Source: Nitrospirales bacterium
GTDB taxonomy: Bacteria; Nitrospirota; Nitrospiria; Nitrospirales; UBA8639
Direction of reading: 5' to 3'
Length of the DNA: 64,000 nucleotides
Assembly: GCA_963555755.3 (NCBI GenBank)
Contig: OY820905.2
Span: 2,464,001 to 2,528,000 of the forward strand
Each line of letters opens with the position of its first letter. Position 1 is the first letter of the stretch. Shown here one piece after another: positions 52,312 through 62,627 of the stretch. Both the position numbers and the translations under genes were made by a program. A model generated the notes under the pieces. That model searched no databases. It saw nothing but the letters and a program-made list of their open reading frames with translations, and had not been told where the DNA came from.

Positions 52312-53268
52312 TCAAGAGTGCCCTTTTCTTCGTCGATTGAGGCGAGCTCGGAGGGATCGTTCAGCTTTATATTCGGTGACGTAGCGAGTCTCAAAGAGGG
52401 CCACGGGATTGAGATCTCGCACATGGTTTTCATCCCAACTAATATGCAATTGATCAATCATGGTGATGGGTGGCGTGGCGCCATCATCACCTAACGCATG
52501 TTCCACATACGACCGGGAGAACAGTATAATTTCGTTGTCAAAAAGGGCCGAATTGATTTGGCCTTTGACCCCTTGTTTTTTGTATTCGGCCGCCAGTCGT
52601 TGGAAGGTCAGCGTTTGACCGAGTTCCTCGCGAAAGGCAAAAAACGTTGAGACGCCCACCAACTTCTGGTCGTTGAGGACTTGGAGAGCTTCAGCGATTT
52701 TTTCTTCTTTGGTGAGCTGATCTTTCGTGAAAATAAACAATCGGCGAATCTTCACCCCTCGTTTGATGGCAAATTTACTGCCCATCAGATAATTGGGAAA
52801 CAGGGGCCCCTCTCTTCTCCAGACTTTCCAGCGCTCTATAATGGAATCTACTGAACTCTCCGTGGTCCTCAGGATTCGGTCCATTTCCGTATAGGCGATA
52901 TTCCCTTCATAGGACAGCATTTGGGATTCTAATTGCCGAAGGTCGTGGCCAATATCTTGGACCTTTTGCGGAATATACCGAGGGTGTTCAGGAACATTAA
53001 TCAGGACATCCACGGCTGTCAGAGCCATTTCCCAATGTTCTTTTTCTCCGGTTGGGGCTTTGTCCCTTTGGGCGACAAGGAGGAGTTCGACAGGATTCTT
53101 CTCGAGTAAGTTCGCAATTCTAATGCAGACAGCGGTATTGGGAACTTTCTTGCCACGACGAAACCAGTTGGCCTCGGGTTGGCTCACCTTGAGTTTTTTC
53201 GCAAGGGTGTAGTCACTGGTGACCCCATATTTTTTTTTGACTTGTTCAATGTAACGCGGAATGCCCAT
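52312..53268 (-). CDS. XRE/phage-repressor-like HTH protein with a large uncharacterised C-terminal domain
   Basis: TSDYTLAKKLKVSQPEANWFRRG HTH; GGAGGAG RBS. Confidence 0.75.
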   Translation of the reverse strand: MGIPRYIEQVKKKYGVTSDYTLAKKLKVSQPEANWFRRGKKVPNTAVCIRIANLLEKNPVELLLVAQRDKAPTGEKEHWEMALTAVDVLINVPEHPRYIPQKVQDIGHDLRQLESQMLSYEGNIAYTEMDRILRTTESSVDSIIERWKVWRREGPLFPNYLMGSKFAIKRGVKIRRLFIFTKDQLTKEEKIAEALQVLNDQKLVGVSTFFAFREELGQTLTFQRLAAEYKKQGVKGQINSALFDNEIILFSRSYVEHALGDDGATPPITMIDQLHISWDENHVRDLNPVALFETRYVTEYKAERSLRARLNRRRKGHS

Positions 53269-57029: not shown

Positions 57030-58801
57030 GGATCAATCGCACTTTTGGTGGAGTGGGGGTAAACGGTGAGGGGAAGAAAGGAGGGAGCATGACCGGATGG
57101 ACACCACCGATGAACGTCAGATGCTGGCCTTCTTCTTACCCGAAGGCCCCTTGGAGTATTTCGAGCTGAGTCGAGGCACGAAGACGGCCCACGCGATCCA
57201 CTTGGTACTGGAAGAGAAGAATCACCCTCCGCTGGCGGATGCGCAGCCAGGCCCACGCGTCTGGTCCAAAGGATTCCAGGACAGCACCATCACCGATTGT
57301 CCCGCCAGGGGCCGACCCGGTTCCCTCACGTTTCGCCGCCGGCGCTGGCAGGTGGAGGGCGAGCCCTCGCTTCTGACGCGCGCCATGGCTCTTCCGGCCC
57401 CCGGGACACAACTGGCGACGGAATGTGCGGCTTTTGTAAAAGCACGCGGCTGCCCACAAGCCGCGGGCCTGGGCCACGATTGCCGAGGCTCATTTCCTGG
57501 ATGCCACGGGGGTTGTGCGGCACTACCGCGAGCCTCGCAGCGACGTCCCCACGTGGGAGGCGCGCACGCATGCCGCCGCATGGCTCGTGTTTCCGGAGAA
57601 CGTGGGGAGGCACGTGCGCCTTGCTGCAGTGGCAAGCAGCCAAGGCGAGCGCGACACCGTCCTCACGAACAACGCGCGCCACGGCAAGCACGGCGCGCTG
57701 GTTGCCATCGTCAAGGGCCCCAAGACCGAGGTCGTCAGCGAGGGCTTGCGCCGGATCCCTGAATCCATACGAGAGACGGGCCAGCCCGTCACCCGCGATC
57801 TCGACGCGAGTATGGCACAGCTTGCAACGGTCTGCTTCCCGAATGCGCAGCAGAGCGAGGACCGCGTCCAGGTCCAGCAACGCGTTTCTGAAGCGTTCCA
57901 GGAAGTCCGTGTGGCCTTGCGCAAGGAGGCGATCACGGACGACAACGCCCAGGTCAAAGCGGCTCGGGAACGTGGGAGCCACTCCCAGGCCCCCCGCTAC
58001 GAGAATGGGGATACCCACAAGGCGGTACTGGCAAGCAGTCGCGACCTGTTGTTCAAGGCGAGGAGCACATGGACCGTCTCACAGCAGGAACGGGGCGCCA
58101 TGCTCTTCTGCGAGTATCCCGTGCGACAGAAAGCCTACAACCGCTCCATGATGTTCCGGGGAATCTACGAATACTGTGAGACGCAAGGCCATGCCCACGA
58201 GAAGTTGCAGGAGTGGGACAACAAACTAGGGAGCATACAGAATCTATGGTTCTATCCTACCGCCATCCAATTCTGGCCCCATGGAGTTTCTTGGCCATGG
58301 CGTTGCTTCCTGTGAGCGTTCTTGCTTGTGTCGCTGCACGATCTTCTCGTGCCCTCTTCCCACGGACCAAGGGGCTATGACGCCAGGAAGAGGCAGCATG
58401 AGATGCGGCAGCGACCTAAAAATACAAGACGACGCCATTCGCTCAAAAGGAGAGGCGACATAACCCACGAGGAGTGCCATAACTTTATGTGCACCTGATC
58501 GTATTGTGCTGCCAGAACCCTAAATTCTGCATGATCCCAAACTAGACACCTCCATTGAGATCCTGCCGGCCTGCGAGACGCCGATGCAGAGGATCAAACT
58601 CCATGAGACAACCATCTTGCACTCCTTTGATAGCCGGCGGACCACTGCCAGCGCTGAATCGTGTCATGCAAAGAGTAAGAATTTCCGTGCGCTGCAGCGA
58701 GGTGTCCGAGGGGTGCCCTTTTTCCTCTACCGCCTCGCGAAGATCTACGGCTAAGAACATGAAGGATGGTACCCTGGCTCCACCAAAATTGCGATTGATC
58801 C
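57030..58801 (+). mobile_element. Degenerate ISL3-family (ISAon1-like) insertion sequence, interrupted by a MITE
   Basis: 24-bp TIRs GGATCAATCGCA(C/A)TTTTGGTGGAG at both ends; decayed transposase motifs LEEKN, RRRRW, WLVFPEN, ENGDT, TASAES..AK.K.FR..RGV. Confidence 0.88.
58230..58537. mobile_element. ~308-bp MITE with IS256-like ends, inserted in the ISL3 transposase
   Basis: 24-bp imperfect TIR GGA(G/T)CAT(A/G)CAGAAT..; 8-bp target duplication CAAACTAG (58222-58229, 58538-58545); excision restores the reading frame. Confidence 0.85.
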
Positions 58802-59151
58802 GCTTAACACCTTGAGCAGATCATTGCGAAACGTTTTACCATACTTGGGTGGTCGACCCGAGCGGGGCTGATCCTGAAGGCCGGCTAGCCCATTCTCGAC
58901 ATAGCGTTATCGCCAATCAATGACTTTGTTGGGGTACGTGGTGAGTTCCTGAGCGATCTGTTTGACCGGTTTTCCCGCTTCGCTCTCCAAAATCATTTTC
59001 GCTCGGGCCACCGTTTGCTTGGGCAATGTTCGGCTCTTTGTCCGGTTTCGTAACGTTCTCTTGTCCTCTGGGGGGATCTCTATGGGGGGGGGCAGTTCTC
59101 GGCATAAGGCCAAAATTACATAATATAGTTTAACTTAGCAATTAAACACTA
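58802..59151 (-). pseudogene. IS630-family transposase 5' remnant
   Basis: RAKMIL...IAQEL...VIDWR*RYVENGLAGLQDQPRSGRP with an internal stop; truncated at the ISL3 right end; element end TAGTGTTTAATT. Confidence 0.8.
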
Positions 59152-59657
59152 GGACATAATCGGACACGGGCCCGAGGCAAAGTCTGACCATATTTTCAGG
59201 ATTCCGCTGATTTAAATAGAAAACCAATTTCAATATACTTCATTTCAATTTTCGGGGCGCCCGTGGTCGACGCAGAAGACAACCTGGGTGGGGTCGTAGC
59301 CAGGCGGGCTATTCTCCCAGACTATTTACCTGCGAACAGACCACGCAAGGTTTTCTAAGGGGAAACGGTCTCCCTGGTACGATCCACTTGTGGAAAAAAA
59401 TCAGAAAGGCGGACGAACTAAGGCAACTCTCCGTCTCCAAGTGAAGAGCATGATTGTGTAAGGTTCCCGAACCCCTCTGCCGCGCCTTTTTTATTGCTAT
59501 GGGGAACCCATGGTTACCGGGGTGCTGGGACTCTCAGGTGACACACCAGAGTCACTGAGAGGACGGCAGACGAAGCAGTAAAACAGCAGAAGCCGTGGGT
59601 TATGTGGTGAGGGGCAAGACGGCTTCATACAATTACATCTCTCAAAGGAGGATCATA

Positions 59658-60188
59658 ATGGGAACAGTCAAACAAATACTGATCGGGCTAGTCAGTGTGG
59701 CATTCCTGATTGGCGTGGTGCCGATGGGCACGCCGTTGGGGAGCGTGGCGCAGGCGGCCCCAGGGAACCAAGCCAAGCAATTCGTGGTGTTGGGGACGGG
59801 CGAGGTGTTGGATCTGACCACCGGCTTGCGGTGGCAGCCAGCTCCTGGAACCACTGAGACAGGAGGTGGGTCTTTCTGTAACGGACCTAGGCAGTGCGGC
59901 CCGTGGCAACAGAACGTGGACTATTGTGCCGCCCTTGGGGATGGCTATCGGCTGCCGGAGTTGAAGGAGCTGATCAGCCTGTTGGATTACGGCGTGGCTT
60001 CCCCTGGCCCTACCCTCCCTGCTGACCATCCGTTTATTGAAGTCCAGTCGACCTTCTATTGGTCGGCGACGACGAGTGCCGATAATCCCGCGAACGCGTG
60101 GGGCGTGAGCTTCAGCAATGGCGACGTGGGCATCGGCAATAAGCTGAGCAACGACTGGTTTGCCTGGTGTGCGCGCAGTCGCTCGTGA
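59658..60188 (+). CDS. Secreted DUF1566 (Lcl/CLec-like) domain protein
   Basis: Signal peptide; VLDLTTGLRWQ, YRLPELKELISL, YWSAT, NAWGVSF, WCAR; AGGAGG RBS before ATG 59658. Confidence 0.88.
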   Translation: MGTVKQILIGLVSVAFLIGVVPMGTPLGSVAQAAPGNQAKQFVVLGTGEVLDLTTGLRWQPAPGTTETGGGSFCNGPRQCGPWQQNVDYCAALGDGYRLPELKELISLLDYGVASPGPTLPADHPFIEVQSTFYWSATTSADNPANAWGVSFSNGDVGIGNKLSNDWFAWCARSRS

Positions 60189-60323
60189 TGGGGTTTGAGG
60201 ATTTGGTCATTTGAGTTATTTGGTGATTTCGGGGGTGCAGGGGGCGGGAGCCCCTTGCTCGCCCCTGATGTGGGGTAGCGGTGAATTGCACACTCACTGT
60301 TACCTGACCAAAGGAGGCCCAAC

Positions 60324-60402
60324 GTGACCGCATCTTGCAGTATGTTCAGTCAGATTCTCAAGCTCATTCCGCGGGTAGAATTCCAACGCTTCGTCAAGCA
60401 GA
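60324..60402 (+). pseudogene. IS4-family transposase N-terminal fragment (DUF4372-like)
   Basis: GGAGG RBS then VTASCSMFSQILKLIPRVEFQRFVKQ. Confidence 0.55.
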
Positions 60403-60499
60403 GGTATTGTTGTGGCCTTGTCCAACTCCCATGCGCGGCGTAATTATGAATTCGAGACCCATAGCCAAATCTTGCTTAACTTGACAATGCCCCCTCCGA

Positions 60500-61087
60500 T
60501 CATTTCAGAGGGAATTGAATAATGATGCCCCCCATGACATCGTTGAGCTTGTAGTCCTTCCTCGGACTGAGCAGGTGTTCATTGTGACAGGTTGCGCAGG
60601 CTTGAGTGACCGCTCTATCCGCATAGATCGCTTTGAAGTGGGGACCTTTTGCTCTTCTGATCGTGGTCGTATGTACTGTACTCGGATCATCCGCCACAGC
60701 CTGTAATCCTGTTCGTTCGAAGTCCGTGGCCGGCCCATTGGTCTCATCAATAGGCCACAGGCTCGCTAGCCGGTACTTCAGGCGGGATCCCCTCCTTTCC
60801 ACCTCAAGCCCTGCAAACTGCAGCAGTTGAGCTGGAAGAGGAAGCTGGTTCTTCTGGGCCCAGTCTTCTGACGCATAGGCTTTCTGATGAAGCTGCATCC
60901 TTTCAACCACGAGGGAGGCATACAGGGTCCGGTCCGCTTCAATGATCGCATGGATATAGTCTGCAACTAACTTTGGCGCAACACAGGCCTCGCCGCCCGC
61001 TTCTTTCGCTCCCGACGAACAGCCCACATACGCGACCAACGCGAACCCAGCAAGAAGAGTTCCCCGCAAGAAACCTGTTTTGATCAT
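60500..61087 (-). CDS. c-type heme lipoprotein (DUF3365/Tll0287-like)
   Basis: YVGC lipobox-like, LPLPAQ, CATCH heme motif, DVMGG; AAGGAGG RBS. Confidence 0.85.
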   Translation of the reverse strand: MIKTGFLRGTLLAGFALVAYVGCSSGAKEAGGEACVAPKLVADYIHAIIEADRTLYASLVVERMQLHQKAYASEDWAQKNQLPLPAQLLQFAGLEVERRGSRLKYRLASLWPIDETNGPATDFERTGLQAVADDPSTVHTTTIRRAKGPHFKAIYADRAVTQACATCHNEHLLSPRKDYKLNDVMGGIIIQFPLK

Positions 61088-61212
61088 GACAACACCTCCT
61101 TTGTGCATTCCCTTAGAAAGATTCCCTAAAGAACGACAGATATTCAAAGGCCGTAGCACTGAATCTCACGGTCGGCGTAGGCAGTTCGTCTCACCTTTTG
61201 TTAAAAACAAGA

Positions 61213-61245
61213 AAGCCCTCAGGGCGTATAGCACCCTGAGGGCTT
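61213..61245 (-). terminator. Intrinsic terminator downstream of the Sel1 gene
   Basis: 12-bp stem AAGCCCTCAGGG/CCCTGAGGGCTT followed by a T-rich tract on the minus strand. Confidence 0.75.
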
Positions 61246-61478
61246 CATAGTGAATTTCGACAATGAGGACTTAATCCAAAGAAAAGTTACCCCATGGGAG
61301 TATCCTTATAGTATTAAACAAAATTTTGCTCCTCTTTGAAAGGAAAGTAAAGCCTATTGTTTTTAAAAAAGCCTGGAACGAAACCCTTTCAGACCCTGTC
61401 CCTTCTATAAATTCGTCCCCATTGAAAAACTTGATTTTTTAGATACCGCAAGGCTGGATGAGTTTTTTGACCATACGA

Positions 61479-62627
61479 CTATTCTCGCCATCCTTCTGCG
61501 CGCTGTTCAGCTTCGGCAATTTGAGTCATGTCCATTCTGGTGGCTAGATGATCTCTTGCCCTTGTTGCCTCTCCATCGCTCTGGTCCGCTGAAAGGGTGA
61601 ACCACTTATACGCCTCCACGTCATCTTGGTTCAGGCCTAATCCATCTCGATACATCTTTCCCAAAAGATATTGTCCCTCTGCATGACCTTGTTCGGCGGC
61701 TTGGCGAATCCAATGCTCGGCTTCTTGATAATCTTGTTGAACTCCCTTTCCTTCGAAATACAGCACGCCTAAATGGTACTGGGCTTTCTCCATTCCTTGT
61801 TCTGCGGCTAAGTGATACCATTTCACGGCTTCTCGCTCATCTTTCGTCAGGCCCGTTCCATTGGCATACAACCACCCCAAGCTGTACTGAGCTTCCCGGT
61901 GTCCCTGTTCGGCAGCCTTCCGAAACCACTGTGCAGCTTTTTGATCGTCTTGTGTGGTTTCATCGGTTCTCTGATACAGCCAGCCTAACGCGTACTGAGC
62001 GATGACATGGCCCTGCTCTGCTGCACGTTCCCACCAGGGTATGGCATCCTCCAGGTTTGTCGCGACTCCTTGACCATTGGCATAACTCCACCCCAGGCTG
62101 TATTGTGCTTCAGCAAGTCCTTGGTTCGCGGCTTTTCGAAACCACTTCACGGCTTGTTGAGGATCTTGCGTGACACCGTGGCCATTCACATGAAGCCAAC
62201 CGAGACTATACTGCGCGTGCAAGTATTCCTGGTCTGCCGCCTGATGAAACCACTTGGCCGCTTGCTGATAATCTTGGCTGACTCCTTCGCCTCGTTCGTA
62301 CATCACACCCAAGTTAAATTGCGCTTCAATTTCTCCCTGCTCAGCTGCCATGTGATACCATTTCCCCGCTTCGTGATTATTCTGTGGAGTCCCTTCCCCC
62401 TTGCGATACATGTCCCCGAGAAAGGATTGCGCCGCAGCATTTCCTTGTTCTGCCTCTACATGAAATTCATGCAAGGCGGTTTCATGGTCTCCGAATGCAT
62501 AGGCTCGAATCCCAGTCTCTAAGTCCGCGATTGCCTCAGACATTGGTCTCAGGAAAAGGATGATCATCCAAATCACGAACATGGAAATTGGGAAAGACCG
62601 AGAGCCCTTCCTGCAAAACATTTTCAT
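61479..62627 (-). CDS. Secreted Sel1-repeat protein
   Basis: About eight repeats of AQxxLGxxYxxGxGVxQDxxxAxxWxxxAAEQG. Confidence 0.93.
   Translation of the reverse strand: MKMFCRKGSRSFPISMFVIWMIILFLRPMSEAIADLETGIRAYAFGDHETALHEFHVEAEQGNAAAQSFLGDMYRKGEGTPQNNHEAGKWYHMAAEQGEIEAQFNLGVMYERGEGVSQDYQQAAKWFHQAADQEYLHAQYSLGWLHVNGHGVTQDPQQAVKWFRKAANQGLAEAQYSLGWSYANGQGVATNLEDAIPWWERAAEQGHVIAQYALGWLYQRTDETTQDDQKAAQWFRKAAEQGHREAQYSLGWLYANGTGLTKDEREAVKWYHLAAEQGMEKAQYHLGVLYFEGKGVQQDYQEAEHWIRQAAEQGHAEGQYLLGKMYRDGLGLNQDDVEAYKWFTLSADQSDGEATRARDHLATRMDMTQIAEAEQRAEGWRE

What the first reader, a model, noticed from the sequence alone, without database searches (positions are those of the whole stretch)
60058..60270. 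DUF1566 gene looks like an orphan diversity-generating retroelement (DGR) target
Seen: the 3' end reads AAC GCG TGG GGC GTG AGC TTC AGC AAT GGC GAC GTG GGC ATC GGC AAT AAG. The putative variable codons (GGC, AGC, AGC, GAC, GGC, ATC, GGC) are all NNC and derivable from AAC by adenine-only changes. The gene is followed by TTTGGTCATTTGAGTTATTTGGTGATTT and a GC-rich hairpin (GCAGGGGGC-GGGA-GCCCCTTGC). Known: DGRs diversify CLec-fold C-termini through A-specific mutagenesis and use a downstream IMH/hairpin. I found no RT, Avd or template repeat in the window. Inference: a remote target diversified in trans, or a fossil target, beside IS debris.
Basis: partly seen in the sequence, partly recalled or inferred. 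Interest (0 to 1): 0.7.

Follow-up and report, generated by a model that had tools for sequence, protein, structure and literature searches.

The report
Frozen DGR target, machinery lost
The tip of this small, likely secreted binding protein carries the adenine-specific signature and target hairpin of a diversity-generating retroelement, but the genome has no matching template or enzyme, so it is most likely a frozen leftover of a known hypermutation system, one that a relative's genome suggests could be re-armed by a newly arriving cassette.

Summary
Observation confirmed. The gene (59658-60188, Pfam Lcl_C) ends in a real DGR variable region: against a relative's template repeat (TR), found independently of it, the 51-nt core differs at 10 of 22 adenines and 0 of 29 other bases. 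The downstream hairpin occurs twice in 4.6 Mb, each time behind one of the genome's two Lcl_C genes. In relatives it precedes avd-TR-RT; here an IS4-like stub follows. The genome has no DGR RT (35 RTs, all outside the DGR clade), no Avd and no cognate TR, only scraps. Contigs from 3 samples carry the identical region. So this is a fossil, not a remote target diversified in trans. Such leftovers are published (Treponema, PMC4891356), and this scan noted them before on other DNA. The family context adds something: 18 of 20 hairpin loci lack TR and RT downstream, and in genome G144 a target from another lineage with an intact hairpin matches the resident TR (1 of 98 non-A differences), whereas two without it do not. 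The T-rich tract is not the IMH. New member of a known kind.

The parts
59658..60188 (+). Target gene, 176 aa, intact frame, ribosome-binding site at 59644-59653
59658..59756 (+). Predicted Sec signal peptide (residues 1 to about 33; no lipobox cysteine)
   Evidence: hydropathy up to 2.9, first Cys at residue 74; cleavage site inferred
59802..60176 (+). Lcl_C / DUF1566 domain, C-type-lectin-like fold
   Evidence: Pfam E 4e-19; model pLDDT 88.7; top Foldseek rows are CLec folds, none at E<=0.001
60042..60161 (+). DGR variable region (VR); core 60042-60143
   Evidence: 14 of 34 A against 4 of 68 non-A differences to the L088 TR; 10 of 22 against 0 of 29 to the G017 TR over 60093-60143
60162..60179 (+). 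IMH-equivalent constant end (codons A-W-C-A-R-S), with non-A differences from every TR found
   Evidence: aligns with TR 3' ends; IMH definition from PMC5758913
60189..60231 (+). T-rich spacer conserved before the hairpin in the family; no counterpart in the TR
   Evidence: alignment of 25 target ends; core motif 12 times in the genome
60232..60258 (+). GC-rich target hairpin of this DGR family
   Evidence: 2 copies in the genome, both behind Lcl_C genes; 20 hits in 13 of 115 family genomes, 0 for the reversed control; fold
60324..60401 (+). IS4-like transposase N-terminal stub at the place where avd begins in relatives
   Evidence: DUF4372 E 0.003, below Pfam's cut-off; single copy in the genome
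58802..59481 (.). IS630 end (58802-59152) plus 330 bp of leader, duplicated at C1:1605016-1605695, directly upstream of the gene's own 175-bp leader
57030..58801 (+). Broken ISL3 element (IS debris)
   Evidence: DDE_Tnp_ISL3 E 4e-15; copies at C1:735916 and 2535354

Best explanation
This gene carries the variable region and hairpin of a DGR target while the genome holds no DGR reverse transcriptase, Avd or matching template, so it is most likely the stranded, now frozen target of a lost target-hairpin-avd-TR-RT cassette. Shown: adenine-biased match to TRs of a Nitrospirales DGR family; the family's hairpin; the cassette order in relatives; no machinery in the assembly. Inferred: while the cassette was present, error-prone reverse transcription of the TR rewrote the adenine positions of the lectin-fold tip; an IS4-type insertion behind the hairpin followed by deletion removed avd-TR-RT; the last variant is now inherited like an ordinary gene. 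The product is predicted to be a secreted or periplasmic single-domain C-type-lectin-fold binding protein with one fixed specificity; its ligand and its expression are untested.
For: VR signature against three TRs found through Avd or RT searches: 10/22 vs 0/29 (G017), 9/21 vs 3/30 (G144), 9/21 vs 1/30 (G242). Third-base test. Differences from the closest protein P0002 fall on 12 of 17 TR-adenine codons but 1 of 17 constant codons, with 23 of 92 upstream. Hairpin found only behind the two Lcl_C genes. Cassette order in G017, G144, L082, L084, L088, L089. All 35 own RTs fall outside a clade of 29 DGR-type RTs (SH-aLRT 100, quick tree); 8 of 8 representatives have group II intron RT as best NCBIfam hit, 6 over the cut-off; a DGR-RT profile scores at most 154 bits in the genome against 340 or more for its own members, and an Avd profile finds nothing. 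No A-only template for four VR segments. Other DGR scraps show decay in this genome: a second orphan target, a 76-nt TR stub of another subtype, 26- and 40-nt avd scraps. Main contigs of 4 runs have 0 other letters across the VR. Only 2 of 20 family hairpin loci keep TR and RT within 1.5 kb.
Against: No cognate TR was found: the best of 10 TRs leaves 4 of 68 non-A differences, where three cognate pairs leave 0, and the last codons before the IMH (CTG, TGG) and GCG, CGC in it are not derivable from any TR found. So drift after the loss cannot be told from a TR I have not seen. Run contigs drop rare variants, and one sample may be the source of the assembly. The assembly has 2 contigs, so an unassembled element cannot be excluded. 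The IS4 stub is below Pfam's cut-off, and the order insertion-then-deletion is inferred. Several hairpin-less Lcl_C genes (L021, L042, L043: 0.17-0.19) match the G144 TR as well as the window gene does over the full length (0.20).
Confidence: 0.85

Rival explanations
1. The gene is a live remote target, diversified in trans by avd-TR-RT on a plasmid, prophage or region missing from the assembly, or present in only part of the population.
For: The frame and the hairpin are intact. Remote targets exist in this family (G144, 330 kb apart) and in print (PMC5758913 section 13). PMC10907252 section 8 describes loci whose intact form was seen only in some cells.
Against: Nothing in the 99.4%-complete assembly. 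Identical VR in contigs at depth 10-127 from at most 3 samples and 2 studies. This RT subfamily was found in 0 of 6 same-genus genomes and in 3 of 301 order genomes, plus one fragment. No viral contig with this RT, target or TR pattern.
Confidence: 0.08
2. The target gene arrived alone by horizontal transfer or IS-mediated movement and never had a cassette in this lineage.
For: IS debris on both sides and a duplicated leader upstream. Similarity to G003 and G006 stops left of the IS region (the G006 contig ends there). PMC4891356 names this alternative for Treponema.
Against: The genome holds other DGR scraps (TR stub, avd scraps, second orphan), and same-genus G002 has targets followed by avd stubs. 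The two histories are hard to separate for this one gene and give the same frozen state.
Confidence: 0.05
3. The NNC pattern is ordinary codon bias plus protein conservation in an Lcl_C gene, and the hairpin is a terminator.
For: The TRs were picked with a pattern that shares constant segments with the VR, so their non-A identity is partly circular. No cognate TR was found.
Against: TRs found through Avd or RT give the same result. Synonymous third bases match far above codon usage. The hairpin has no T-run after it and precedes avd in relatives. Hairpin-bearing genes have a median non-A difference of 0.17 (n=18) against 0.385 for hairpin-less homologues (n=30; 3 skipped; kin not independent).
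Confidence: 0.02

Closest known systems
Leftover target genes in Treponema denticola isolates lacking the core DGR (PMC4891356, section 11 read)
   Same: VR differs from relatives' TRs mostly at adenines; no RT or TR in the genome; read as a leftover of cassette loss.
   Different: Other phylum and target class (Lcl_C, no lipobox). In isolate SP32 the old-type remote target kept its old VR after a new DGR arrived; in G144 here an old-lineage target matches the new TR.
Category 'd' / CLec2 DGRs with DUF1566 targets, exemplified by Legionella LdtA (PMC5758913, passages and section 13 read)
   Same: Short DUF1566-only target, C-terminal VR, GC-rich inverted repeat, avd; the family's RT has a weak MutS_I extension, as that paper notes for three RTs.
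   Different: Here TR, avd and RT are gone; the protein is predicted secreted, not a lipoprotein.
Incomplete DGR loci and trans-diversified targets of Thiohalocapsa PB-PSB1 (PMC10907252, section 8 read)
   Same: Broken loci that keep a target; some are driven by another locus's TR, one is invariant.
   Different: That genome keeps matching TRs and RTs and shows read-level variation; this one has neither.
Bordetella phage BPP-1 target site: IMH plus hairpin/cruciform (PMC3240598, abstract only)
   Same: GC-rich stem with a short loop downstream of the VR.
   Different: Here about 50 nt, including a T-rich spacer, separate the IMH-like codons from the stem; the hairpin's function was not tested in this family.

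Membership tests
DGR target gene (past or present) | VR differs from a TR mainly at TR adenines | tested here: met
   (relatives' TRs, not a cognate one)
DGR target gene (past or present) | C-type-lectin or Ig fold carrying the VR at its C-terminus | tested here: met
   Pfam Lcl_C; top Foldseek rows CLec-fold (Bd2740, Lcl, Mtd, TvpA) but none at E<=0.001
DGR target gene (past or present) | IMH at the VR end, homologous to IMH* of the TR | tested here: inconclusive
   60162-60179 aligns with TR ends but differs at non-A positions from all found
DGR target gene (past or present) | GC-rich inverted repeat downstream | tested here: met
Active DGR or live remote target | Cognate TR in the same genome (A-only differences) | tested here: not met
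   the only TR-like stub is of another subtype and truncated
Active DGR or live remote target | DGR-class reverse transcriptase in the genome | tested here: not met
Active DGR or live remote target | Avd or other accessory gene | tested here: not met
   NF033474 best E 4.7e-4, far below cut-off; family Avd profile no hit; HRDC, MSL and CH1 not searched
Active DGR or live remote target | Allelic variation at TR-adenine positions in the population | tested here: inconclusive
   contigs identical in 4 runs, but contigs drop rare variants and no raw reads were offered
CLec2 / category 'd' class of Wu et al. | VR overlaps DUF1566 and aligns with the CLec2 profile | tested here: inconclusive
   DUF1566 overlap shown; not aligned to the paper's supplementary VR set
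Legionella LdtA/Lcl-type surface lipoprotein | Lipoprotein signal with lipobox cysteine | tested here: not met
   first Cys at residue 74

The most novel reading that the evidence does not exclude
Orphan targets that keep their hairpin are dormant, re-armable landing pads: DGR cassettes come and go in Nitrospirales, each loss leaves a target plus hairpin, and a later, non-cognate cassette overwrites the old VR with its own template. In G144 a target with the flanks of another lineage and a scrap of a different RT behind it matches the resident TR at 97 of 98 non-A positions, while two targets with a missing or broken hairpin do not. The window gene, with frame and hairpin intact, would be such a stored scaffold awaiting the next cassette.
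Probability: 0.3. Interest if true: 0.62.

Novelty: new member of a known kind. Interest (0 to 1): 0.32.

Why it matters
For this gene alone, little: it is one more frozen DGR target. It shows that DGR surveys anchored on the RT miss most traces of this family (2 of 20 hairpin loci keep TR and RT), and that a short hairpin motif finds them. If the G144 pattern is general, lost DGRs leave reusable scaffolds that a new cassette can adopt. That would explain how remote targets arise and gives a natural test of what a target needs (hairpin, IMH, tolerated TR mismatch).

Tried and rejected
BLASTN, tblastn and an A-wildcard scan of the own genome for a TR: only poly-A repeats and the gene itself. 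The three 328-aa RT frames looked DGR-sized but have group II intron RT as best hit and group with the other own RTs. Laying contigs of 4 runs on a related avd-TR locus (L081) gave no long cover of avd or TR; only the VR-bearing contigs, short repeat matches and one depth-2 piece were laid. Contigs show presence, not absence, so this is not counted as evidence. No RNA holder listed. Low-depth variant contigs in X2 and X3 differ outside the VR too and are read as another organism, not DGR alleles. Viral contigs: no hit for the TR pattern, RT or target (close relatives only). Rfam over 58500-61500: one weak His-leader match at E 0.038, not believed. An upstream GTGAC-GTCAC-type palindrome appeared before the start of only 3 of 19 targets and was dropped. 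Sequence searches of PDB found nothing credible. The ESM Atlas and the wide structural search were busy and gave no result. The careful RT tree did not finish; the quick tree is cited. A broad paper search returned unrelated papers. The DNA around P0002, the closest homologue (13.7-kb contig), could not be fetched, so its possible cassette is unseen.

Full report
Observation. They belong to an intact 176-aa gene, 59658-60188, with a ribosome-binding site, a hydrophobic N-terminus without lipobox and a Pfam Lcl_C (DUF1566) domain. An AlphaFold model from 25 sequences (pLDDT 88.7) has C-type-lectin folds as its top Foldseek rows, among them Lcl, Mtd and TvpA, but none reaches E 0.001. The genome is 4.62 Mb in 2 contigs, 99.4% complete; two related records are titled Nitrospiraceae.

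Is it a variable region? Homologues occur in 27 of 61 genomes searched, the own genome included. In G002 (same genus) and G017 they are followed by the same T-rich spacer, the same hairpin and an avd start. G017 also has a TR and a broken RT. A motif search built on that TR found 9 metagenome and 2 genome loci, four with target-hairpin-avd-TR-RT in order. An RT search found an apparently intact cassette in G144. Against three TRs found through Avd or RT, the 51-nt core of the window gene differs at 10 of 22, 9 of 21 and 9 of 21 adenines but at 0 of 29, 3 of 30 and 1 of 30 other bases. Over 102 nt the best TR, L088, gives 14 of 34 against 4 of 68 (p 3e-5; 11 changes to G, 3 to T); that TR came from the motif search, so part of its identity is built in. 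Third codon bases match the TRs at 26-30 of 31-32 codons where codon usage, taken crudely from long open frames, predicts about 11-12 (the L088 row there is an error and is not counted). The closest protein, P0002, differs at 12 of 17 TR-adenine codons, 1 of 17 constant codons and 23 of 92 upstream residues. So the region was written by a DGR. Against this: the codons just before and in the IMH-like end cannot be derived from any TR found, no TR is cognate (best 4 of 68 non-A differences; three cognate pairs 0), and some hairpin-less homologues match TRs equally well, probably as older fossils.

The downstream signals. The hairpin motif occurs twice in the genome, once here and once behind the only other Lcl_C gene, a PEP-CTERM protein at C1:1851271-1851969. 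The T-rich core occurs 12 times, mostly in unrelated short repeats, and has no counterpart in the TR. By the definition in PMC5758913 (passages) the IMH is the constant VR end shared with the TR, here the codons at 60162-60179. PMC3240598 (abstract) shows a downstream hairpin is needed for efficient homing in BPP-1; that it does so here is inference.

Is the machinery present? No. There are 35 RT matches. None has the DGR-type motif, and all fall outside a clade of 29 DGR-type RTs from relatives (quick tree). Eight representatives have group II intron RT/maturase as best hit. A DGR-RT profile scores 154 bits at best against 340 or more for members, and an Avd profile finds nothing. No A-only template exists for four VR segments. 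What remains are scraps: a 76-nt 5' TR stub with the family's TR leader at C1:4066958, of the PEP-CTERM subtype and not matching this VR; 40 nt of an avd 3' end at C1:3934379; 26 nt of avd behind the PEP-CTERM gene. Behind the window hairpin, where avd starts in relatives, lies a 26-codon IS4-like stub (below cut-off). Upstream are an IS630 end with a duplicated leader and a broken ISL3. The main contigs of four public runs (at most 3 samples, 2 studies; one may be the source) carry the VR without a difference at depth 10-127; contigs hide rare variants, so this is weak.

Family context. The exact hairpin pattern hits 20 places in 13 of 115 family genomes, the reversed control none. Nineteen follow a recognisable Lcl_C-type end and one is doubtful. 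Within 1.5 kb downstream, 2 have TR and RT, 9 have only an avd stub (one cut by a contig end, one also with an RT tail), 1 has an RT scrap, and 8 have nothing found. This RT subfamily is in 3 of 301 order genomes plus one fragment, and in 0 of 6 of the genus; no TR was found in five genomes checked. Many of these genomes are incomplete. The picture is repeated loss of the machinery with target and hairpin left behind.

G144 is a natural experiment with n = 1. Its remote target, 330 kb from the cassette, has a tail 95% like L081 and 59% like the resident target, upstream DNA 80% like G002:C86 and 55% like the resident, and a 44-nt scrap of a divergent RT behind its hairpin. Yet its VR differs from the resident TR at 1 of 98 non-A positions, against 9 of 69 from the L081 TR over the first 102 nt. 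Two further targets, one without a hairpin and one with a broken hairpin, differ from the resident TR at 12 and 14 of 71; the first is closer to L081 (4 of 69). The simplest reading is that the resident cassette overwrote an older orphan whose hairpin was intact. In G017, whose RT is broken, no such match is seen.

Mechanism. Shown: VR signature, hairpin, cassette order in relatives, absence of machinery in this assembly. Inferred: past mutagenic retrohoming, loss of avd-TR-RT through IS insertion and deletion, and a now fixed binding tip on a secreted lectin-fold protein. Ligand and expression are unknown. I put 0.85 on the fossil, 0.08 on live trans activity from an unassembled element, 0.05 on arrival of the target alone and 0.02 on chance.

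Comparison with what is known. [quoted passage not shown] PMC5758913 (passages, section 13) covers DUF1566 targets, remote targets and MutS_I-extended RTs. PMC10907252 (passages, section 8) covers incomplete loci driven in trans. PMC8144416 (passages) notes that RT-anchored mining misses remote targets. Searches for DGR with Nitrospira and for target capture or remnants listed no paper on this family or on overwriting of a foreign-lineage orphan; I saw listings only, and did not open supplements of the large surveys, which may list these cassettes. Earlier notes of this scan report at least eight similar orphan targets in other genomes (unchecked, not evidence).

Verdict. A real, ordinary fossil DGR target: new member of a known kind, interest 0.32. 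The re-arming idea rests on one relative's genome and is the part worth following.

Noticed in passing
G000:C1:1851271-1851969 (-), locus L124: Second orphan DGR target: Lcl_C plus PEP-CTERM, same hairpin, 26-nt avd scrap behind it. G002:C82 (L135) has a matching gene with a similar hairpin context and a different VR.
   Followed up: partly
G000:C1:4066958-4067033 (L185): 76-nt stub of a template repeat with the family's TR leader, PEP-CTERM subtype, cut off after the A-W codons and preceded by a palindromic repeat.
   Followed up: partly
G000:C1:3934379-3934418 (L186): 40-nt avd 3' end attached to palindromic repeats like those that follow avd in L083 and G144; repeat recombination may drive cassette decay.
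   Followed up: partly
G144:C4:355606 (L132), 686352 (L138), 281097 (L179), 353344 (L180): Four targets in one genome: the two with an intact hairpin match the resident TR, including one with flanks of another lineage; the two without do not.
   Followed up: yes
L088:4128-5663 and relatives: This DGR family's RT is about 510 aa with a weak C-terminal MutS_I match (E 2e-6), and its start lies directly behind the TR end.
   Followed up: partly
whole genome G000: 35 group II intron-type RT frames in several families, some nested or in tandem (C1:3481-10968, 2160212-2165516, 797171-802282).
   Followed up: partly
window 58222-58543: A 310-bp element with over 30 full or partial copies interrupts the ISL3 remnant; some copies lie just upstream of group II RT genes.
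   Followed up: no
window 58802-59481: IS630 end plus 330 bp of non-IS leader duplicated with C1:1605016-1605695, where it precedes a long oxidoreductase-like gene; it may have replaced this gene's promoter.
   Followed up: partly
runs X2, X3, X5, X7 laid on window 59784-60210: Low-depth contigs of a relative with a P0002-like allele, and a second contig family matching 60022-60090 whose flanks are not in this genome.
   Followed up: no
G022:C1:895-1938 and 2833054; G026:C2:313050 and 661007: Family members carry other DGRs with shorter RTs and large targets, outside this RT subfamily.
   Followed up: no
window 52312-53268 (-): Gene with an N-terminal helix-turn-helix-like region that reads like a phage or island regulator; not searched.
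   Followed up: no
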